Shown piece by piece: positions 4,263 through 40,124 of a stretch of 40,124 nucleotides of DNA. The notes under the pieces were generated by a model that ran no database searches, was not told the origin of the DNA, and saw nothing but the letters and a program-made list of their open reading frames with translations. The translations under genes and the position numbers were made by a program. This stretch comes from Collodictyon triciliatum (taxonomy: Eukaryota). The number at the start of each line of letters is the position of its first letter. Positions within the stretch are counted from its first letter, which is position 1. The stretch covers positions 1 to 40,124 of the forward strand of contig JBHJMP010000865.1 in the NCBI GenBank assembly GCA_043381765.1, read 5' to 3'.

Positions 4263-8433
<4,171 letters not shown>

Positions 8434-9454: not shown

Positions 9455-15638
<6,184 letters not shown>

Positions 15639-18649: not shown

Positions 18650-18830
18650 AGGGAGGGCAGGTCAGGGGAGAATAGGAGTGGGTGAATCAACAAATCGAAA
18701 ACAAGCAAAGAAAGAAGAGAAAAAGATGGAATGAAAGCAGTAGGCGGGTCTTCATCTCTCGTCAGGTTGAATGGGCTCCCGCTTGCTCGGAGAACGGCAG
18801 AAGTGTGTGATTCCTACAGCCGTGCGTCCG

Positions 18831-20941
18831 TTACTCTGCCTTGGGCGGGGACGTGGGAGGCTGTGCTTGTGCTGTGCTGGGTGCTTCGCCAGGCTTGGAC
18901 TGCGTGGCCCACACATGGATTGCGTTAGAGCGTCCGACGCGATGGAGGAGTGGATGGATGGAGCTAATAGAAACAGAGAAGAGAGTGTATAGATGCCAAA
19001 GCAGAGTTGAATTAAAAGAGAGAATACTTGTGAACGCAAAAAGATCCAGTCGTAGTAGTAGTCGCAGCTGTACAGTTCGCGGACCATGCAGTCGCGGAAG
19101 AGCTTTCTCACGTATGCGTAGTCAGGCTTGTCTTCGAAGCGCAGCGAGCGGCAGTAGAGGAGGAATGTGGAGAATACATCTAAGTGTCATTATGGTCGCG
19201 TGGTCGCATTTAGTCTTCCTTATGATGATTTTGGGATATGGCGCTCTCTCACGTGCTTCTTTCATGTTAGTGGTGTCTTCTCATAGATGGCAATAGATGG
19301 CGTATATTGCCGTATGGCGATGAGAAAACATTGCAGATAGATGCCGTATTTGTTTTGCTTGAGAATTATGCTTACGAGGAAGCCCCTTGCAGAGGGTCTC
19401 GATTGAGGTGGACATCTTGACCTGGCCGATCTTTTCGTACTTTTGCTGCTTCGTGTTTGCGTTGAGTCCTTGCCACGGCAGAGAACCCTTCAAGAAGTAG
19501 ATCAGGACGTATCCCAGAGCCTCCAGATCGTCTCGTCGACTTTGTTCTGTAAATGGTCGTGTTGAGTGGAAGATAATTTCTCTCTCTATCTCTATTCTTT
19601 TTCGCCGATTCTCAGTCTCGGATAATGAAAAGGCTGCAATGGGGTTAATATGATTATGGTTTGCCAGCTTTCAAATTCATCTTGGCTCTTACCAATTCCC
19701 ATGTGGGCATTGACAGAGGCGTATCGTGCTGTTCCTGTCAGGCTTTTGTTCTCTCGATAGGGTATGTGCTGGTGAGTGTGGGGGTCGCGATACTTCTTTG
19801 CAAGGCCCATATCGATCATATAGACGATGTGGCTGCGCTTCCCCACACCCATGAGAAAGTTGTCCGGCTTGATGTCACGATGAATGAAGCATTTGGAGTG
19901 GAGAAACTCGATGCGGAGAATCTGCACAGATTGATAGCAAATAAGACATTGTTTGTTGTGCTCATATGTTTCAGGGTTTTGTTATTGACCATCGTATGAG
20001 TGAGTTGCGTCCAAAGGGGGTTTCTTTTTTAGCGTTTTTTTTTTTTTTGTAAACTAGGTGTACCATTTGGTCGGCAAGCATAAGAACAGTTTTTAAGGAA
20101 AATCGACGACCACAGCAGTTAAAAAGATCCTCCAAGCTTGGCCCGAGCAGATCCATGACTAGAAAGTTGTGTTCATTTTCACAACCATAATATCGGACAT
20201 AGGGGAATCCAGCTAAGTTGAGAAATACAGTGTCAGTATCTTTCTTCGCATGGTTTCCAGATATTTTAAATAAGTTCACAAATTCAAAAAGAAAAAGTGC
20301 TCGGAGAGCACTGAGAGTAGCTTTAGGTGTAAAGAACGTAGTTGTTACTAGGTAAGGCATTGAAGGAATGCTGGAGCAGTTTGCTTTGAGGGAATAAAGA
20401 CAAGATTTCATGAGGAAAAAAAACTCACTTCCGCCTGCAAGAATGCGATAAAGCTTGTACTCATACTCCAGCTGGGGGTAACGTGTGTTTGCGGCTTCCA
20501 CTTTGACGGCAACTTCCTCATTCTCCTCAGTGACACCTGCCAAGGAAGAAATCAACGCATGTTTGGCTTAGGGTGACATGATAAAAAGGAGGCCACGTGA
20601 ATATGCTGGCGTGAATTCTTGTTTAATAGGTATTGTGTACCGTGGTAAATGTCGCCGAAAGCGCCACTGCCGATTCTTTTAACGAGGCGGTAACGCCCAG
20701 CGATTTTATAATCAACCAGCGATCCTGTGTGTTGTGGAGTTGAGGGCTTCGTTTTTAGTTTTGTTATCTTTTTGTTTTCTTTTGCTTTTGGTTTGCCATG
20801 TTAGGTTTTAGTATAGACGATCACTAAGAGCATCATGATAGCAAACGAGCTTTCCTTTTCTTCTCACTCGATTTTGTCTCATCCAAAATATTTTCTTTTT
20901 TAAAAGATCGCTGTAAGAAACTCACGTGTAACTGGTGGCAT
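18831..20941 (-). CDS. Casein kinase I (delta/epsilon/alpha-like), 8 exons; N-terminus may extend to 21488
   Basis: Motifs: [122 protein letters not shown]. Short tail ends ..PPTSPPKAE* (TAA 18833-18831). Confidence 0.96.
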
Positions 20942-22772: not shown

Positions 22773-25700
22773 ATGCAGAAGACTCTATTTTCGTTCTTCT
22801 CAGGGGCATCACAATCCACCTCTTCTCAGAGTAAGTCTTCTGTATTTTTCTTTCAGTTCAGTTTGTGGAGCTACTTTTTTTTAAATGTGCTTTGGTATAT
22901 AGGAGATTGAATAATAACACTACAAACGTTATATACACACTCACTCAAATATATATCTGCGTGTCATTTTCTAATAATCAGTGCGGTATAACCATATTCA
23001 AAACTATACAATGCTCTTAAAAGATATGATTTATAACAAGGAAAATATAAGTCCACTTATTTCCCACTATCAAAGAATCAATATTTCCATCGCATTTTTA
23101 ATTAACCCAATTTCTTCCTTTTCATTCAAATAATTCCCACCAGAGTCCTCATCTACCGTCTCAGACTCACCACAAGGTAATATCCAGATAAACATCTATT
23201 CATATCCTTGTTGTACGGTCTTACATTTTCCTCATGACATATTCTTTCGTTCATAAGTGGTAGAAGATCAAATACAAGGAACATAATATATGTTACATTC
23301 GCAGCCGATCTTATCAACACTTTCAACCGCAATCTTCGACTGCTTATCAATCATGAAAAAAAAACTTTTCCTTCTCGACTGACATACAAATAATTTAAGG
23401 TCAGGTGTCGGCGTCTCAACCATCGCCCAGCAAACCGACAGGACTCTTTTCACCGCACCAAAATCTGTCCACAAACCAGAGCAAAGTAATGGGTTCACCA
23501 ACAAAATCGAGCACGCTGTTTTCATTAAAACAGGCGTCCCCAAAAGTCTCTCAGACCATTCAGCCCGAGTCACAAACGCATTCACCAATGCGCTCCGAGA
23601 TATCCAGAATCAGTGGAACTTCGACACAGCCATCACCAGTTTTGCCCATAGCGAGATACGGAGAATCTGCACAAAAACAAGCCAGCCACGCCTCCCACAA
23701 GCGAAAAATCGAGTTTCATGAAGGCGAAAACGATCTTGAAGAAGATGACGCACCAATATTCAGTTCCAATCCCGCAGTGATGACAATCAAACCAAAGCAG
23801 TAATTTCCCCTCATTTTACTTGATTTGACTTCTTTTCAGAAAGGAACCCCTTCTTTTCTTTTTATACATTTACTTTAGTACTGTGCACTGAGTTTCATAG
23901 ATACCACATACAAGATTTTTTTTTGAAAATGTATTCAAGAGCGATTTATTCAATCTAGTTGACATTCTTTATAGAATAAACACTGGGAAGCTGAATATTG
24001 AGAATACACCTATCTCCACTCAAAAAACTCCAACAAAAATTGCAAGAACTAATTCGGGCCGAACTATCAAGAAAATCTCCCAGAAAATCGAGGATGATGA
24101 GGAAAGTGACAGTGGCGACTTTGATGATAATGACGATGACCTTGACTATGGTGCTGCCAAAGGCACAGAAAACATGGATAACGAAGATGATGATGACAGT
24201 TCGCTGATTGGTGAAGTAGACGAAAATGACGGGGGAGATTATGACATCGATGATGACGCTGAGATCGAATTCAGCACGCCATCAAAAAAAGGAGCTAGAG
24301 CCCAATCAACACCAAAGAAGTCCACGCCCTCACGAACTCCTGTAGTTGATTATTGGAATCTTCCATTTTATACCATTTTCATATCATCATATCATCATAA
24401 ATACTTATATATATCCTTTCACTTGTTTGATGTTTTTTTTTTATTTTACCTAATCTTTCTTATCCTCAGGGAAAAGGCTTCGCTTCGTCAAAGCCAGTCC
24501 CGATGCAAGGTTTTCCCTTTCAAACTCAAAAAACTAAATGTTTTGCAAACAGTATATCACAAGTATATACCTAGTTGGGATATGCCTGTTTCCTTTGTTA
24601 GATTTTTTTTAATTCAGTTCTTTCATACTTAGTGCTGGCAAAAGGAGAGAACCCTTATCGAAGTAGCACATATGACAATTCCAGATTTGAATGGCTCGAG
24701 AATCTTAGAGATGCCAAAGGCGTGAAGAAAGGTGATTACCAATTATATGATACTCTCGATACTTTCTTTTTCTTAATTTAATCACATATTTAATAGTCTC
24801 CTCAAATTGTAATATATACATTTGCTATTGCTTCTGATGTGGATATTAGGGGACCCTGCATATGACCCGTCATCGTTGTATATCCCCCCGGCTGCGATGC
24901 AAAGACTTACCGCCTTCGAAAAGGTCGATTTTAGAGCCTCACCTATTAATTGCTACCCATTAAAAGAACAACAATACTAACTAACCTTTGAATCGAATAA
25001 GGAAAAAAAAACAATACTAATTAGCAATATCATAGCCTGTCTTTGAATGCTATTGAAATGTCCTTTTTAATGAATCAACTTACATTTTTTTCAAACCACA
25101 GCAATATTGGGAGGTAAAAAAAGCACATTTTGATACGGTGGTGTTTTTCAAGAAAGGGAAATTTTACGAGCTTTATGAACAAGATGCTGGTGAGTTATCT
25201 TTCTTTTCGTTTCCTTAACTGTTAGTCTCACCTAAATTTAGTCCCTGAAAATTCCTTTTTTTTTTAAACCAGTTTAATTATAAATATCAATATCCTCTTC
25301 GGTTGGTTGCTTAATGAAAAAAAAAAAAAAACGATATATTCTTTAAGACCTTGGAAATCAGTTACTTGGACTTAAATTGACCGACCGAGTCAATATGCGA
25401 ATGGCTGGTGTCCCTGAAGCTTCGTTTAACATGTGGGCGAGTCAGCTTATTAAAGCAGGGTATTAAGAACTTTAATAGCTACAAGACGAATCACTAGTTC
25501 AAACAATGATTCACCAAGGGCATATTTGAGTTGGCCCAGAGCCAATCAATTCATCCTTAAATCATAATTTTTTTAGATACAAGGTTGCCAAAGTGGATGA
25601 AGTGGAGAGTAACCTCTCTATGCAAAAGCGCAAGAAGGAGAACCCAAAGGATGGAAAATTCGGAAGCGTTAAATCAGTGATGCAGCGCGAACTGACTTCC

Positions 25701-28391
25701 ATATTAACAGGTAGGCAATTGACTGGGTGTAATGTTTCTCGGTCAGGTCTTATTTATTAGTTAATAGATTCAGTGTCAAAAGTTTGAGTAAACTTCATAC
25801 CATCGCTCTAGTGGGAACCATATCCGATCCAGACCTCATTCAGAATATGGACTCAAACTTTTTGTTAGCCATCAAAGTGAGTCATAATTCAGATTTTTCC
25901 CAGGTTACACAATTGAAATGTAATTTCTGTATGTTATGTGTTAAATATATTCATTTTTTTTTGAAGTGGACTGACTATATATGTATGAATGTAACAGGAG
26001 TTTGAAGGATTAAACAAAGTTGGTGTGTGTTTGGTGGATGTTTCGACTTCCACGTTCCATATTGCACAATTTGATGATGACGCTCGTCGAACACAAATCG
26101 AGACTCTTTGCCTGCAAATGAAACCAAAAGAAATCCTTGTTGAAAAGGTTAGACTGTCTTTAATGTCACTTTTTGAATTATCAAACTAATAGATTGAATG
26201 AATGATGACACAGTCATGACAAGTGACAATTTTTCTGCACTTACCATATAGGTTGTTCTTTAGGCATCAATTCATATTCTAAAGTTTTTTTTTCTTAATC
26301 TTTCTATCGTGGTTGTGGCATCAACTTAGAAAAATTTGAGCACTTTGACAAACCGTACCATCCGTTTAAGTGTTCCTTCAGCCACGGTCACTGCGATGGA
26401 ACCTGAAAAGTATTGCACGATTCAATTAAACGTTCCATTATATCACCACAGAAGGATTCCTTTTCTACAATAATAAACATCATCTAGATTGAACTCTCAA
26501 TGCACACCATCTAAATTTTAATAACCGACGGCATCCAAATTCTAAACAGACAGTTTTGGGGCTCTCAAGAGACTATTGATTATTTGTCAAGAAGTTCCAT
26601 GTATGGAGTAGACACTCCAAAAGCATGTACTATGTTTTCCTTTCATAGACAGATGCAATATCTACTTTAAACAAGGGGGTTTCTATTCAAACCGGACAAA
26701 ATTTTTGAACGTGATTGTTTCGTTTTAATTGTATATTAATTTATTTACTATTTTCTTGTCGAAGCGAAATGGCCACCAGTTTTGAAGAAAATGATAACCA
26801 ACGAATTGGCAATATCGTGCCTTGGAGCTGTTATTTCATACTTGATATCAGTTTGTCATTCATAAGGACAGTTACATAAATCGAAAAAAGAAAAAAAAAC
26901 TCCATACCTATGAAAACCAACTCGTTATTACTAACCAAACTCTTTTCACATTATGGCTTCATCGTCTCACAAAAGGTCAAAAGTGACCCATCCATTATAC
27001 TATTGAACCGAATTCAAGAGTACAGCGCCACGACTTCATCAACATCAATGGTATTTTCAGCCTATACGTCTCACCCATTGGTTGTCGAGCATTCATTTTT
27101 TTTGTTCATTATTATCTTTCCTTTTTATTTTCATATTTTTTCTCATGGATAGGTTCTTGACGGTCAAACTCTACTGAATCTCGAAATATTGGAAAACACA
27201 TACGATGGGGGCTCTGAAGGGACTCTGCTTAATCTCCTTGATTACACATCGACTCCATTCGGTAGTTTTTCTCCACTATTTTTCTCTCTCAAATTTTTCT
27301 TGCTCATGCATTTTAGGGAATTCAAGTAAAGACATACCATTTTTACATGAGAATGTAATATCTGTCTGTTTTATTGACAGCAAAAGAGAAAAGAGGATGA
27401 TGAAGAAGAAAGGGCAATTTAGAATCTACTCTAAAGTGGTATTTATATATATATATATATATATTAAGGTCGCCGATTGTTTCGGTCGTGGGTATGTCAT
27501 CCTCTCCGTCATCCGGGCATGATTAGTGCTCGCCTGGATGCTGTTCAATGCTTGATGAACATTGGCGAACAAAAGGGTATTTTGTCCTTCAATTGATCCC
27601 CGCATGCGTAATCATAATGCATATCAAAGCAAAGGAAAAAAAATAATGCATATCAACATGTTTACCTTTAAACATTTTTTTCTATTTTTATCTAAAAATG
27701 TCACATTTTAATCAGGACAAAAACAGCCAAAATCATAGAATCACGTCAATTATACCTTGATTTGACACATGCTTTTTCCATATGTTTTGTTTTCTTTTCA
27801 TTTTGGACATCCTCCTGCTAGAGCTATATCAGCATTTGAAAAAACTTCCCGATCTGGAGCGTTTGCTTTCACGCGTGCAAACAAAGTCGTGCAGAGTTCC
27901 CGAATTTCTCTCTGTTATCGAGGGATTTGGCAAAATACAGGTTCGTTCCTATTCATTTACTGTCCTGTTACTTTTTTAATCGTTATTGGTAGATGTTGCT
28001 ACTTACATACTTGCCTTCTCTTACATATATCCTGTGGTTTGAGTGATGTCTTTAACTACTTTGAATGTACTGCTTTAATCAAGAAGTAATCATTATAGAG
28101 AATAAGGGCAATGATGATCGATCTGTTTGCAGACACACCCAGTGAGGTTGATGCCTTTCATGCCTTTCCCTACCTCTTCTCTAGTTTCTATTCAAAAGCA
28201 TATATTTTTTCAGTGATTAAAAAGCAGACACGCTAATAATTATGTAAATTATTTAAATTAGATACTCAAGAATATGGTTTCACCAATGGGGGTATTTAGG
28301 GATTTAGATGAAAATATTGCAGTGTTTGAAAAGTCATTTGATTTGACTGTTGCCCGTGAGCAAGGTATTAGAGAACGGAACCGCCTTATTG

Positions 28392-28448
<57 letters not shown>

Positions 28449-31400
28449 TAGCCGCAACAATGGTAAATACCACTCATAAATTCAATGATTGTATTTGCTT
28501 GCATGACAGGGGTTATTTCTCCCTCTCTTGGAGCGGACTCAGAGTACGACAAAGTTGTTGCGGAGGTTCGTGATTTCTTTTGTTCGGCATGTAATATTTA
28601 GATGACATTTCGATACACATGCATGACTTGTCATTTAACGAAACCCATATTGATAATAAGAGTTCTTAAATTAATCACTCTCAGTTGCCTTTTTATTATA
28701 ATTTTTAATAGGTGAAGTTTTATTCTATTTCTAAAGCAACCTTTTCTTTTATTTATCACAGGTCAATACTTTACAAGAAAAGTTAGATAATCACTTGGAA
28801 GAACAGAAGAAGATATTGAAGGTAAGATGCTTTTGTAATCACATGATTCAAATTAATTTACTCTAGAGATAAAAAAACAAAAAACAAACAAATGCCATCA
28901 AACTGTACCTAGATATCTTCTATTGTTTACAAGAATGTCGGAAAGGAGTTATACCAGATTGAAATCCCAAACAAGGCACTTGAAAAGACCAAGATTCCAT
29001 CGCATTACATTTTGATGTCCCAAACAAAAACAGCGAAGCGATATTGGACGCCATTTATCCAGACATGTTTTGCCCCTCTCAAAGAAGCTGAGGAGAAGCA
29101 AAGTGGTAAATACTTCTCCATTCTAAAAAGTGGGGAAAAATAACCACACACACTATCTGCACTATTGTAGCTTTTTTCCCCCTTGTATGTATACGAAATT
29201 TTAGGAAAAAATATACTCGTTTCAAATAACTAGAAATACTTTTTCACACAATGTGCATTTGTAATATTTGGATGTTATGTTATCTTTAATTCAAATAAAC
29301 ATATTCTCTTACATGTTTATCCGTCATATAAAAAACCCAATTAACCATTTTGCTATATGGAATGATAGATATTCGAGATAACTTTCTGACCCTCTTACAG
29401 GAGAAAGTAATTTATTCAGAATATATGGTTTTATTTGACCGACGGATTAAGTTACACTCGGTGTCCTTACATCAGATAATAGGAGGCTCAAAATAAAAAT
29501 TATATTGACTAGTTCGACCAACGTCGTCGTGTTTGGAGGACAATTGTGGATTCTGTTGCAGAGTTTGATGCCTTGTTGTCTCTTGCCCGTGCATCCGTCT
29601 CGTTCGGCGGTAGTTTCAGAACATCGATTACATTTATTTTAATCCCTGCACTCCACATCATTATCTCTTTTTTCTCTTTTAAAAAAAACAAAGAAACAAA
29701 GCAAAATAGTAATTCAAAATTAAACTTAACGCAGCGCCCTCATGCCGCCCTAACATAATTGACGCCCAAGAACCACAAATTCATCTGAAATCAATGCGCC
29801 ATCCTTTTGCAAAGACAACTGGGTAAGTTCATATTATAAAATTTTTGAATATTTTATTTTAATTCCATATTTACGAAATATGACTATATTTCGCTGTTAG
29901 GGATTCATCGACTTTCATCCCAAACGATACAATTATCGGAGGGAAAAAAAAGCCACATGGAGAGAACGCCAAAGCATGTTTTCAATCCATAATTAGTTTT
30001 CCGAGTACTATTTGATCATGAAAAATAGGAGATAGAACAAAAGAAACTCATATTTCATTTTTTTTTACTCTCCCTATTAACCGTCATGGGTTTTTTTTCT
30101 TTCATTCAAAAATTAATACCCTTTCTTAGACAATTCTTCTCACCGGCCCAAATATGGGAGGAAAATCGACACTACTGCGACAAGTGTGATATCAAACAAT
30201 CTATGCGTCTATGGTCAAAAATAATTGCATTTTTTTTTTTTTACTTATGCAGTATTACATGTCTCCCCCTGTTATTTCAACAATAGACCAGTCTTGCCGT
30301 TATTCTTGCGCAGTTGGGATGCTATGTTCCTGCAGAAGAATGCACGATTACTCCCGTCGACCGCATCTTTACTCGACTCGGTGCGCGTGACAACATCATC
30401 GCCGGCCAATCAACATTCATGGTTGAACTACAAGAAACTTCCAGTATTTTAGTATGTCTTTTCTTTCTCTACTTCTGATGGCATGGTTGTAAATATGAAT
30501 CGCTGTTGTAAGTGATACGCACATCTGCTAAATTCCATATCATAACTTGCGATTACCGCACATTATCATAAACTTAATTATGTTACGTCTTAAAGAAACA
30601 CGCGACAAAAAATTCGTTGGTAATCTTGGATGAGCTTGGAAGAGGAACAAGCACGTTTGATGGGTACTTTTGCATGAATAGCCGTAATTTTACGGGATAT
30701 TTACATCTTTAATACAAGAGCGATTATTGATTTAGTGGATTTATATGTGTGTCTGGCGCTCCGCAGATTCTTACAGTTGTATTAGATTCTCGATTGCATA
30801 CGCTGTGCTCCAGTACATCGCATCGAACATCAGCTGCAGATGTCTCTTTTCCACTCACTATCACATGCTTACAGGTAAATATATTATTTCCTTTTCACAA
30901 TCCGATTATGCACGAAAAAAATGTAGAAATCTGTCGATTTGGATGTATTTGCGAACCCTCGAAATTGAAAATCTCACAACCTTGAATGCATATGAAACAA
31001 TTATCATTATCATTATCATTATCATTATCATTATCATTATCATTATCATTATCATTATCATTATCATTATCATTATCATTATCATTATCATTATCATTAT
31101 CATTATCATTATCATTACTTTACTGAAAAATTTTATACAACGCAATGAAACAATGATTATCCCTATTTTTAAAAGATGAGTTTATAAACCATCCTGTGGT
31201 GGCACTGAAACATATGGCATGTCACGTCGATGAAGAGAGGTTTCTTGCGTTATTCCTTCCTCTTTTATCTCCCACAATTATGCATTCCTTTTTGAATACA
31301 TAACAGAATTCACCTTTGCTGGGTTTGACTATGCCCTAAGAATAATATTCACGTTTGCTCCCATCCACTTTTCAGCCATAAAGTCACCTTCCTATATCGC

Positions 31401-37064: not shown

Positions 37065-39256
37065 ATGAGTTGGCTTCTTGCGTTTAAAAAAACAAGGGAC
37101 GAGCCTCTTGATTTCGAAGTCGACTCAGAACTAAAGAAGGAAAAGGATAAGTTTGAAAAAGAGCACAAACTACTGATACTAGGTTTCTGAATGCCATCCA
37201 CTCCCTTACACTGCCTGACAGTACTCTCTATTATTATACTTTAATTCCTTTAGATGTTTCAGAAAATTGTACGGCATGCCAAAAAACAAAAAACAAAAAA
37301 CAAAAAACAAAAAACAAAAAACAAAAAACAAAAAACAAAAAACAAAAAACAAAAAACAAAAAACAAAAAACAAAAAACAAAAAAGTCATCCTTTTTCATA
37401 TTTATGCATGACTATCAACTCTTGAACAAAATTCTCTCTTTATTTTTTTATTTATTTTGTTTATTCATTCTTTGTGTTCTCAAATATTTCTTTTCCTTTT
37501 TGTATTTGAAATAAAATCGAGGTAAAGTACCAATCAATTTATATCATTACTAGGGACGGAAGATTCCGGCAAAAGTGCAGTGATGAGACAAATCAAAAGC
37601 ATATACCAGGGTTTTAACGCGTCAGAAAGGGCTTCCTACAGGGACTTAATTCATCAAAAAATAATAGCATACATGAAAACACTGATTGCAAACTGTATTC
37701 AATTACAAATTACTATGGAGAATCCTGATAGCATGGTGAATTTGCGATTTATTTGAGCTCTATAAAACAAAAAGCTGTACTCTCAAACCTATGCATGATT
37801 TTTTAATATTAATTGGAACAATTATGCTATCACTCCACTCCGGATTCGAAATGACCCTTCTTTATGAACCTACACCCCTGTAATTGATTAGGACTTGATG
37901 AGTCAGATTCTATCACTTGAAGACAAAGAAAGATGGACGTATGATATTGGACAAAAAATCACGTGTCTTTGGAAGGATTCAGGCATAAAAGAAGCATTTT
38001 CTCGACGTTCAGAGTTCAAACTCAGAGAATCGGCTAAATGGTTTTGTTTCTCTATCTTGGAATACATATATATATATCTATTATTACCATCATGAACCAT
38101 ATCCTACACCAATATACCGCCTTATACGTACCATTTTAATGCTATTTAGTTTCTTCGATAGCATGGAGAGAATTAACTCTCCGACTTATGTTCCGGATGA
38201 TAATGACATTATTCTATGTGAAGGTCGATTACTTGGTATTGAGGAGACTCAATTTGAACTAGGAGACTTAAAAGTCCGGTATCGCTTATATTCTAAGGAT
38301 TTAAATAATATCTCCATTTTATAGATAGTTGCGATCTTTCAAACACAGTGCCTTTGGTCAATTTATTTATCATATTTTTATGGGCATTTGTGTCATTCAT
38401 ATTCTAGTACCTCGTTTGTAAAATGAAATTATATGCACTCATAGGATACTAGAGGTTGGGAATCAACACAAAGACTGCAAAAAATGGATTCATCTATTTA
38501 CCGACGTGGCGCCCATCCTATTCTGTGTGGACATAAGCAAATATCCTTAGTCGTAATTATTTACATGTGACTTAAATTGATCTCTAAGCGCTCTGAAAAG
38601 CTTGTATGCATGTGAGCGATTCCTTCAAAAATTAAATTGTCAATATTTTTTTTAACTCCCGATACGTATGACCAGAGAACTACGGGAAATGATTCCCAAA
38701 ATCATGTCATCGAATCAACTGTATTATTTGAAAAAGTCTGCAACAGCCCTTTACATATGAATACAGACTTTATTTTGATACTCAATAAGGCCGATGCATT
38801 TAGAGAAAAATTATACCACACAGACCTTAGTGTTTGCTTTCCATCTTATAGGGGTAAATAGCACAATTTTTTATTTTCTTTTAGTTTATCTGAATCAAAT
38901 AAAGGAAAACTATTCGTGTTGTTTATGCATTTGATTAACCACGAGAATAGTAAATTCAAGCGAATGAAAAATGGAAGCGATAATGAGAAATATAATTTTT
39001 TTTTATTGAGGCACTAACGTGACCAAGAATGTTTGCTCGCTGTATATACCTAATTGATATCAATTGCGTAGGCGGACGAGATTATGACAGAGCCATACTG
39101 TTCATACGTCATGCATTTGAAAGTCTAAACAAGAAGGGGACTAAGGGCATTCATACGCGCCTCGCATATACGACAGATACCATTTACATGAAGTTTGTCA
39201 TGAAAACTGTGCAGGATGTTATATTAAGCAAATACTCGCACACCGTCGGGCTGTAG
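37065..39256 (+). CDS. Divergent heterotrimeric G-protein alpha subunit, 7 exons
   Basis: Spliced translation: [150 protein letters not shown]. Colinear with the G-alpha Ras-like plus helical domains. Confidence 0.93.
37281..37384. repeat. (AAAAAAC)n heptamer repeat in G-alpha intron 1
   Basis: Directly visible. Confidence 0.96.
38541..38665 (+). other. U12-type (minor spliceosome) AT-AC intron in the G-alpha gene
   Basis: 5' end ATATCCTT; branch site TTTTTAAC about 10 nt from the 3' end; terminal AC. Removal joins agc aa|g tat gac cag to give the conserved ISKYDQ with no indel. Confidence 0.93.
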
Positions 39257-39869
39257 GATGCCAGGGATTCGTTACGAAAATCTTACGTTGAATTGTATGG
39301 TGCATGTATCTTTATGTGCTTTGAGTCCATTCAATTATTTTTAAAAAAAGGAGAGAAAAAATATGGACCATGTCATGTGCGCTTCGCTTTTCGTCACTTA
39401 TTGTTCTTTTTACTTCACTATAGCATCCCCCTTTTTTTTTCAATCGCTCCTAGGTCTTTTGTTTACACTTTCGATTAAATAAAAAAAACAAACTTATTGC
39501 AAGTATGCAGATTCCTAACATAAAGCGTATACAATTCTTATTGAACTTCATATCGAATGAAGGATAATTCTTTTTTGTCAAAACCAATTGTATTAGCTTT
39601 TGCTGATTGCCTTGGTCGTCTGTGAAGCTCTGTGGTGATTAAAAACAAACTCGGTTGCCAACAGAGCATTAACAAACTCCATCGATAATCTAAAAACTGT
39701 ATCGCATCTTCTAAATATGCTCATGAAAAGAATCGGATGCTGCTCTTTCTGCTCGTTTACACCACCCGTCTTTTGTCCGACTATGGCGACCACCAACGCA
39801 AACACACAAGCCACACCGACCTTCGTTGGAGTGCCCAATCCTGTTTCTAGGCTGTCCAAAGTAGGGCAA

Positions 39870-39939
39870 TCAAATAGACTCAGCAATAGCTCTCTTTAGA
39901 ATATCCGAATGTCCTTTATCCACACCGATTTTCCCTGCT
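39870..39939 (-). CDS. Possible terminal exon of a minus-strand gene entering from the right edge
   Basis: A long T tract on the minus strand, then gaag|, then AGKIGVDKGHSDILKRAIAESI*. It loosely resembles the last helix of a SAM domain but is too short to assign. Confidence 0.35.
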
Positions 39940-39944
39940 CTTCA

Positions 39945-39970
39945 CAAAAAAGCAAAAAAAACAAAAAAAA

Positions 39971-40058
<88 letters not shown>

Positions 40059-40124
40059 AAAAAAAACCAAAAAAACCAAAAAAACCAAAAAAAACCAAAA
40101 AAAACCAAAAAAACCAAAAAAACC
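39945..40124. repeat. Poly-A tract and (A7-8CC)n repeat
   Basis: Directly visible. Confidence 0.95.

What the first reader, a model, noticed from the sequence alone, without database searches (positions are those of the whole stretch)
38541..38665. AT-AC U12-type intron in a G-alpha gene implies a working minor spliceosome in this organism
Seen: the 125-nt insert starts with the U12 donor ATATCCTT, has TTTTTAAC with its adenines 10-11 nt from the end, and ends in AC. Excision restores [10 protein letters not shown] exactly, and no GT-AG pair does so. It is the only such intron among the roughly 100+ I traced here. Established: these signals are read by the U11/U12/U4atac/U6atac snRNPs, which are patchily distributed in protists (kept in Acanthamoeba and Physarum, lost in Dictyostelium discoideum and Entamoeba). 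Inference: this lineage has a minor spliceosome, and standard gene predictors will mis-model this gene. The branch site is T-shifted from the TTCCTTAAC consensus, which may be mirrored in its U12 snRNA.
Basis: partly seen in the sequence, partly recalled or inferred. Interest (0 to 1): 0.75.

Follow-up and report, generated by a model that had tools for sequence, protein, structure and literature searches.

The report
Minor-spliceosome intron in protist G-alpha
A G-protein alpha gene of a little-studied protist related to Diphylleia has a real, spliced intron of the rare "minor" type, and the genome encodes the standard minor-splicing RNAs, so this is a sound new example of a known system, not a rewired one.

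Summary
Confirmed. 38541-38665 is a 125-nt phase-2 AT-AC intron (ATATCCTT ... TTTTTTAAC ... AC). One contig of public run X1 skips exactly this stretch. The genome holds U11, U12, U6atac and a sub-threshold U4atac that pairs with U6atac, plus CENATAC-like and SNRNP25-like genes, so a working minor spliceosome is very likely. The proposed co-evolution fails: the U12 branch-binding site is canonical, two sister G-alpha genes keep CCTTAAC, and T-rich branch sites show no genome-wide excess. All 6 of 6 distinct G-alpha paralogues that cover the site have an intron there: 3 AT-AC and 3 GT-AG in a separate clade, most simply a U12-to-U2 conversion. The lineage is Diphylleia-like (CRuMs), not amoebozoan. 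I found no paper on a CRuMs minor spliceosome, but it is expected from LECA. This scan had already noted many U12 introns in this genome. Rough motif counts suggest no Physarum-like expansion and hint at AT-AC predominance. New member of a known kind.

The parts
38541..38665 (+). U12-type AT-AC intron, phase 2, intron 5 of the G-alpha gene (splits Lys225, AA|G)
   Evidence: joint 38540^38666 AT..AC in a run X1 contig
38541..38548 (+). U12 5' splice site ATATCCTT
   Evidence: consensus [G/A]TATCCTT as given in 10.1101/2020.10.12.336362
38648..38656 (+). Branch-site motif TTTTTTAAC; adenines at 38654 (-12) and 38655 (-11); two C-to-T changes from TTCCTTAAC, which pair with U12 through G-U
   Evidence: which adenine branches is not shown
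38664..38665 (+). AC acceptor
37065..37182 (+). G-alpha coding exon 1 (start ATG inferred)
   Evidence: the loose end of the X1 contig matches the end of this exon
37554..37735 (+). G-alpha exon 2
37892..38040 (+). G-alpha exon 3
38150..38278 (+). G-alpha exon 4
38445..38540 (+). G-alpha exon 5 (upstream of the U12 intron)
38666..38853 (+). G-alpha exon 6 (downstream of the U12 intron)
39072..39256 (+). G-alpha exon 7, coding part to the TAG stop

Best explanation
This is an inherited U12-type (minor) intron of the AT-AC subtype, removed by a conventional minor spliceosome. Shown: the exact junction is made, and the genes for U11, U12, U4atac and U6atac exist with the expected pairings. Inferred from established mechanism: U11 reads ATATCCTT; U12 pairs its canonical GUAAGGAA with the TTTTTTAAC branch site using two G-U wobbles and bulges the -11 or -12 adenine; U6atac/U4atac/U5 then complete catalysis, and the AC 11-12 nt downstream is the acceptor. 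The T-rich branch site is local drift in a fast-evolving paralogue, not a lineage-wide signal change. The intron position predates the split of two G-alpha subfamilies in this genome. It stayed AT-AC in the Diphylleia-like subfamily and is GT-AG in the other, most simply through one U12-to-U2 conversion (direction inferred). The organism is a Diphyllatea-like member of CRuMs.
For: Signals and frame. Spliced joint with AT..AC ends in 1 of 1 contigs laid. snRNA genes: U12 72.1 bits (cut-off 53), U11 55.3 (39), U6atac 75.7 (33), U4atac 47.4 (53; E 1.7e-5). U4atac/U6atac stems II and I fold at -26.1 and -14.6 kcal/mol; U11/donor and U12/branch-site duplexes form. CCDC84 (CENATAC) family E 6.7e-20 and Ubiquitin_4 family E 2.1e-5. 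Paralogues C2718 and C3208 have AT-AC introns with CCTTAAC at the same phase-2 site; C1461, C10867 and C1571 have GT-AG introns there. The tree separates the two sets (SH-aLRT 100) and puts the AT-AC set with Diphylleia proteins (SH-aLRT 95). Other strict-motif minor introns join consecutive Pfam positions, e.g. a class I tRNA synthetase, two dynein heavy-chain domains, RPL5 and WDR19. Conversion runs from U12 to U2 according to PMC7367187 and PMC3584512.
Against: Dependence on U11/U12 is not shown directly. RNA support is one assembled contig of depth 6 from a run whose RNA status is a guess; it cannot measure retention. U4atac is below the Rfam cut-off. The protein assignments rest on Pfam families without reciprocal orthology tests, and RNPC3, SNRNP35 and ZRSR2 were not searched. 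The paralogue introns are inferred from translation only. The tree is the quick version, the window gene sits on a very long branch (2.85), and the GT-AG paralogues could come from a second organism in the assembly. Two metagenome scans found no other G-alpha gene with a U12 donor at this site, so age beyond this genome is not shown. The lineage rests on G-alpha proteins alone.
Confidence: 0.88

Rival explanations
1. The lineage has a transformed minor spliceosome, with a T-shifted branch-site consensus matched by a changed U12 snRNA, as in Physarum.
For: This intron's branch site is TTTTTTAAC. Only 42 of 5783 U12 candidates were scored, so a second, divergent U12 is not excluded.
Against: The U12 gene found is canonical at the branch-binding site. 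Sister paralogues keep CCTTAAC. TTTTAAC pattern: 21 matches against 37-44 expected; CTTAAC: 88 against 44-58; CCTTAAC: 49 against 18-24.
Confidence: 0.04
2. The intron is an AT-AC intron handled by the major (U2) spliceosome, with its U12-like signals vestigial.
For: The branch site is off-consensus and is preceded by a T tract that could act as a pyrimidine tract. U2-type AT-AC introns exist at very low frequency (table).
Against: The donor is the full U12 octamer, the branch adenines lie at the U12 optimum of 11-13 nt, AT-AC introns are poorly recognised by the U2 spliceosome, and the minor machinery is encoded.
Confidence: 0.04
3. The AT-AC and GT-AG introns at this site are not one ancestral intron: the U12 intron was gained or converted recently in the Diphyllatea G-alpha subfamily, or the GT-AG genes belong to another organism.
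For: Animal G-alpha genes have only GT-AG sites apart from two other exceptions (PMC5896119, passages). No U12 donor at this site was found in metagenome contigs. No paper held all of 'AT-AC', 'heterotrimeric G', 'intron' and 'U12'.
Against: Position and phase are identical in 6 of 6 distinct paralogues that cover the site. De novo U12 gain is rare outside Physarum and conversion is thought to run U12 to U2. The metagenome collection may hold little eukaryotic genomic DNA, so those blanks are weak.
Confidence: 0.15

Closest known systems
Canonical U12-type AT-AC introns of animals, plants and several protists (PMC3584512; PMC7367187)
   Same: ATATCCTT donor, TTAAC branch core with adenines 11-12 nt from the end, AC acceptor, non-zero phase, and a U11/U12/U4atac/U6atac set in the genome.
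   Different: The branch site has TT in place of CC. The host is a G-alpha gene, for which my searches found no published U12 intron. The lineage (CRuMs-like) was not found in the survey supplements I searched.
Transformed, expanded minor system of Physarum polycephalum (10.1101/2020.10.12.336362)
   Same: A protist with U12 introns whose branch site departs from consensus; U6atac of the CC variant, as also reported for Physarum.
   Different: Physarum has TTTGA branch sites, a co-evolved U12 (GCAAAGAA) and more than 20,000 minor introns. Here U12 is canonical and strict-motif excesses are tens per genome.
U6atac 'CC variant' (PMC2396436)
   Same: GCCGA replaces AAGGA in the donor-binding box of this genome's U6atac.
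   Different: Reported for Trichoplax, cnidarians, a sponge, Acanthamoeba, Physarum, a moss and oomycetes; this adds a CRuMs-like lineage.
AT-AC-rich minor intron set of Blastocystis (PMC10639083)
   Same: Possible predominance of the AT-AC subtype: excess about 30-45 AT-AC against about 9-13 GT-AG matches with matched patterns.
   Different: Blastocystis is 77% AT-AC from annotated introns of about 42 nt. Here the ratio is a rough motif estimate, and the introns seen are about 85-220 nt.

Membership tests
U12-type intron | 5' splice site [AG]TATCCTT | tested here: met
   ATATCCTT at 38541-38548
U12-type intron | Branch site like TTCCTTRAC close to the 3' end (optimum 11-13 nt) | tested here: met
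   TTTTTTAAC with adenines at -12/-11; 7 of 9 positions match; pairs with this genome's U12 in duplexfold. Branch use not mapped.
U12-type intron | Excised at the AT and AC termini in transcripts | tested here: met
   Joint 38540^38666 AT..AC in one contig of run X1, depth 6
U12-type intron | Splicing depends on U11/U12/U6atac snRNPs | not testable with these tools
   Needs knock-down or antisense block
Minor spliceosome | U11, U12 and U6atac snRNA genes | tested here: met
   55.3, 72.1 and 75.7 bits, all over the Rfam cut-off, full length
Minor spliceosome | U4atac snRNA gene able to pair with U6atac | tested here: met
   47.4 bits, below the cut-off of 53 but E 1.7e-5 and full length; stems I and II form with this U6atac
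Minor spliceosome | Minor-specific proteins | tested here: inconclusive
   CCDC84 (PF14968) N- and C-terminal hits on one contig and one PF18036 hit. That CCDC84 is CENATAC and PF18036 marks SNRNP25 is recalled; no reciprocal test. RNPC3, SNRNP35 and ZRSR2 not searched.
Physarum-type transformed minor system | U12 branch-binding site changed to match a changed branch site | tested here: not met
   GUAAGGAA, as in the Rfam consensus, against GCAAAGAA in Physarum
Physarum-type transformed minor system | Thousands of minor introns | tested here: inconclusive
   Strict TTAAC-type patterns give only 21-88 matches each; introns with another branch motif would be missed
U2-type AT-AC intron | U2-like donor instead of the U12 octamer | tested here: not met
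   The donor is the full U12 octamer
Canonical catalytic G-alpha subunit | G1 GAGESGKS, switch I Arg and Thr, G3 DVGGQ, N-terminal Gly2 (motif names recalled) | tested here: not met
   Aligned to Diphylleia P0001 the window protein reads [15 protein letters not shown] for SRVRTTG, EVGNQ, and starts MSW; NKAD is kept

The most novel reading that the evidence does not exclude
A CRuMs protist, from a supergroup absent from the minor-intron surveys I searched, has a complete minor spliceosome with the CC-variant U6atac and a minor-intron set dominated by the AT-AC subtype (perhaps three quarters or more, as known for Blastocystis). Its G-alpha family preserves an ancient U12 intron, not reported in animal G-alpha genes, caught after U12-to-U2 conversion in one paralogue clade.
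Probability: 0.35. Interest if true: 0.5.

Novelty: new member of a known kind. Interest (0 to 1): 0.32.

Why it matters
It fills a gap in the map of the minor spliceosome. No CRuMs name that I searched for appears in the survey supplements. With the snRNA set in hand, the many U12 introns that this scan noted in this genome now have their machinery. Retention is what descent from LECA predicts, so a specialist would not be very surprised. The G-alpha family gives a tidy case of one intron position in U12 and U2 states. An AT-AC-heavy set, if real, bears on how the two subtypes evolve. In practice, annotation of this genome must allow AT-AC sites.

Tried and rejected
1) Co-evolved U12 snRNA: rejected. 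2) GT-AG or GC-AG alternatives around the insert: 10 in-frame pairs, none restores the motif. 3) Conservation of the U12 donor in G-alpha genes elsewhere: two degenerate-pattern scans of metagenome contigs gave 0 and 1 hits; the one hit (L062) is not a G-alpha gene. Uninformative. 4) Search for full-length relatives of the window's exon 6: 1 candidate, none at E <= 1e-10, so no orthologue of this divergent paralogue was found. 6) The loose pattern ATATCCTT-N60-90-TTAAC-N6-10-AC gave 33 matches, below its reversed control (59) and below the Markov expectation (37-43), although it holds real introns; the GT-AG pattern (33) is also below its reversed control (60). The Markov model predicts the controls only within 0.75-1.62-fold, so all genome-wide estimates are rough. 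7) A novel U6atac box: it is the published CC variant. 8) An amoebozoan lineage, my starting guess: dropped. 9) The first gene model had the exon 2 start wrong by one base; corrected. The strand handling of C1571 was wrong; corrected. 10) The careful tree did not finish; the quick tree is reported. 11) Literature searches for a U12 intron in G-alpha genes and for a CRuMs minor spliceosome found nothing on point. Most subscription papers are outside the library and bioRxiv supplements were not available, so absence from print is not established.

Full report
Observation. The stretch 38541-38665 is 125 nt, begins ATATCCTTAG and ends TTTTTTTTAACTCCCGATAC. The two adenines of TTAAC are at 38654 and 38655, positions -12 and -11. 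It is intron 5 of a seven-exon G-alpha gene (ATG 37065 to stop 39256). The other five introns are GT-AG. The spliced product is 348 aa without internal stops and reads [10 protein letters not shown] across the junction, with Lys225 split AA|G in phase 2. The flanking exons match Pfam G-alpha positions 187-217 and 219-279. Retention gives a stop after two codons. Of the 10 in-frame, stop-free GT/GC-AG pairs in the range examined, none restores the motif.

RNA evidence. The run search listed three runs, none on record as RNA; X1 held 0.37 of the sampled words. Laying X1 on 37400-39900 gave one contig of 1287 nt, depth 6, with five joints: four GT..AG and 38540^38666 AT..AC with no ambiguity. Its loose end matches the end of exon 1. 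This shows that the junction is made. A single contig cannot measure efficiency or retention.

Machinery. Rfam searches of the own genome (75.4 Mb, 14,576 contigs) each gave one full-length match: U12 at C2237:21672-21821 (72.1 bits, cut-off 53), U11 at C2904:2019-2151 (55.3, cut-off 39), U6atac at C2465:9630-9745 (75.7, cut-off 33) and U4atac at C7969:602-729 (47.4, cut-off 53, E 1.7e-5). Only 40-50 of several thousand first-look candidates were scored each time, so these are not copy numbers. The U4atac candidate pairs with this U6atac through stem II (-26.1 kcal/mol) and stem I (-14.6), which supports it. U6atac has GCCGA in place of AAGGA in the donor-binding box. This is the published CC variant (PMC2396436, passages and section 16). 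Two protein families were sought and both found: CCDC84 (two hits on C3040, best E 6.7e-20) and Ubiquitin_4 (C390, E 2.1e-5). That these are CENATAC and SNRNP25 is my recall. CENATAC and SNRNP25 are named as minor-spliceosome proteins in passages of PMC11039992 and PMC3584512.

The T-shift idea fails. U12 reads GAGUAAGGAAAA at its branch-binding site, as in the Rfam consensus. Physarum's co-evolved U12 reads GCAAAGAA (10.1101/2020.10.12.336362, parts 1 and 3 of 4 read). The T-rich site still pairs with U12 through G-U pairs. Genome-wide, donor plus TTTTAAC plus AC gives 21 matches against 37-44 expected from Markov models. Donor plus CTTAAC gives 88 against 44-58, and donor plus CCTTAAC 49 against 18-24. 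The window gene is also the fastest-evolving paralogue (branch 2.85), so local drift is the simpler reading.

Paralogues. A PF00503 search gave 36 matches. Six distinct G-alpha genes cover the site, and all six have an intron there in the same phase. Three are AT-AC: the window's C865 (125 nt), C2718 (131 nt, ATATCCTCC ... CCCCTTAAC ... CAC) and C3208 (162 nt, ATATCCTTT ... ATCCTTAAC ... CAC). Three are GT-AG: C1461 (214 nt, GTACCTTTT), C10867 (103 nt) and C1571 (194 nt); no CTTAAC is seen near the 3' ends. C775 ends before the site. C9362, C10828 and C13864 are 85-98% identical to C2718 or C3208 and were left out as likely alleles or duplicates. A quick maximum-likelihood tree of 36 rows (7 paralogues and 29 of the 120 listed hits, chosen by length, name or id number) groups the three AT-AC genes with two Diphylleia rotans proteins (SH-aLRT 95). 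It puts the GT-AG genes with C775 in a separate long-branch clade (100). The position therefore predates that split. Given that conversion is thought to run from U12 to U2 (passages of PMC7367187 and PMC3584512), one conversion in the GT-AG clade is the simplest account. The direction is inferred, the paralogue junctions lack RNA support, and a second organism in the assembly is not excluded. Outside this genome I could not trace the site. Two metagenome scans gave nothing relevant, and passages of PMC5896119 report only GT-AG sites in animal G-alpha genes apart from two other exceptions.

Lineage. The 62-aa exon of paralogue C2718 is 95% identical to two EukProt proteins named Diphylleia rotans. 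Among the named hits I looked up, the next is 84% (Fabomonas); unnamed environmental proteins reach 89%. The window protein's best matches among the fetched proteins are the same two, at 47-48%. Earlier notes of this scan pointed me to this lineage. My test rests on G-alpha alone.

How many minor introns. With matched patterns, AT..AC gave 88 matches and GT..AG 33, against expectations of 44-58 and 20-24. That is an excess of about 30-45 against 9-13. Of 63 AT-AC candidate loci examined, 11 had Pfam support on both flanks or on a flank reaching the junction (L036, L047, L048, L049, L066, L067, L073, L080, L081, L082, L138). Only frames with open flanks were scanned, and only 14 of 38 references. 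Of 25 distinct GT-AG loci, 2 had such support (L107 RPL5, L119 WDR19). The T-rich set was not scanned against Pfam. Against these estimates: the Markov model fits the reversed controls only within 0.75-1.62-fold, the loose pattern shows no excess, and duplicated contigs inflate counts. The fair reading is tens of strict-motif minor introns, perhaps a few hundred in all (inference), no sign of a Physarum-scale expansion, and a hint of AT-AC predominance. For comparison, AT-AC is about 26% in human and 77% in Blastocystis (PMC10639083, section 24).

Comparison and novelty. The intron meets every U12-type feature that could be tested and works like a textbook minor intron. It does not meet the features of the Physarum-type transformed system. 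Full-text searches found no paper joining CRuMs with the minor spliceosome (listings) or G-alpha genes with U12 introns (listings). The CRuMs names searched were absent from the supplements of PMC10639083, PMC9887622 and PMC11347168; the held supplement of PMC11039992 was only 851 characters. In PMC9120149 I saw passages and part 1 of supplement 6, which report U12-U2 pairs between paralogues as common and do not name G-alpha; two of its files were not searched. A preprint naming Diphylleia has no splicing terms. Subscription papers and bioRxiv supplements could hold a prior report. The minor spliceosome was in LECA (passages), so retention is expected. This scan had already noted many U12 introns on other contigs of this genome: 132 of 692 notes fit the look-up. 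None was on a look-alike of this exon.

Verdict. Observation confirmed, main inference supported, co-evolution idea not supported. New member of a known kind; interest 0.32.

Noticed in passing
window 37065-39256 (+): The G-alpha is an expressed but degenerate paralogue: P-loop GTEDSGKS, switch I lacks the usual Arg and Thr (CEGRLLG), switch II reads EVGNQ, and there is no Gly2; NKAD is kept. It may be a catalytically atypical or pseudo-GTPase subunit (motif roles recalled). No full-length relative was found.
   Followed up: partly
L003:1501-1616 (G000:C2465:9630-9745): U6atac is of the CC variant (GCCGA), which pairs poorly with the canonical donor; this puzzle is stated in PMC2396436 and now extends to a CRuMs-like lineage.
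   Followed up: yes
L036, L047, L048, L049, L067, L073, L080, L082, L138 (each at about position 1501 on the matched strand): Further likely AT-AC U12 introns in a Glu/Leu/Phe/Val dehydrogenase, a class I tRNA synthetase, a C2-domain gene, two dynein heavy-chain domains, an ATP_bind_1 (GPN-type) GTPase, a DUF4457 gene, a Ras-family GTPase and an RTC-family gene. No RNA check.
   Followed up: partly
L107 and L119: GT-AG U12-type introns in RPL5 and WDR19, each joining consecutive Pfam positions.
   Followed up: partly
L096 (G000:C1461), intron after S-E in the G-alpha gene: The GT-AG intron begins GTACCTTTT, close to the U12 donor GTATCCTT, but has no CTTAAC branch motif; possibly a remnant of its U12 past.
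   Followed up: partly
G000 contigs C9362, C10828, C13864 against C2718, C3208: Short contigs are 85-98% identical to longer ones, which suggests two haplotypes or strains in the assembly. This inflates motif counts.
   Followed up: no
window 37183-37553, 37736-37891, 38041-38149, 38279-38444, 38854-39071: The five GT-AG introns sit at positions and phases that I recall from vertebrate GNAI genes (recalled, not tested), which would make the gene structure ancient.
   Followed up: no
window 4900-5900, 9900-11800, 18750-20200 (-), 23000-31200: By eye from translations: a NEK-like kinase, a class III nucleotide cyclase with membrane helices, casein kinase 1 and a MutS-family gene. Not tested.
   Followed up: no
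window 37280-37384 and 39950-40124: An (A6C)n repeat inside intron 1, and a poly-A / A6C2 repeat at the contig end.
   Followed up: no
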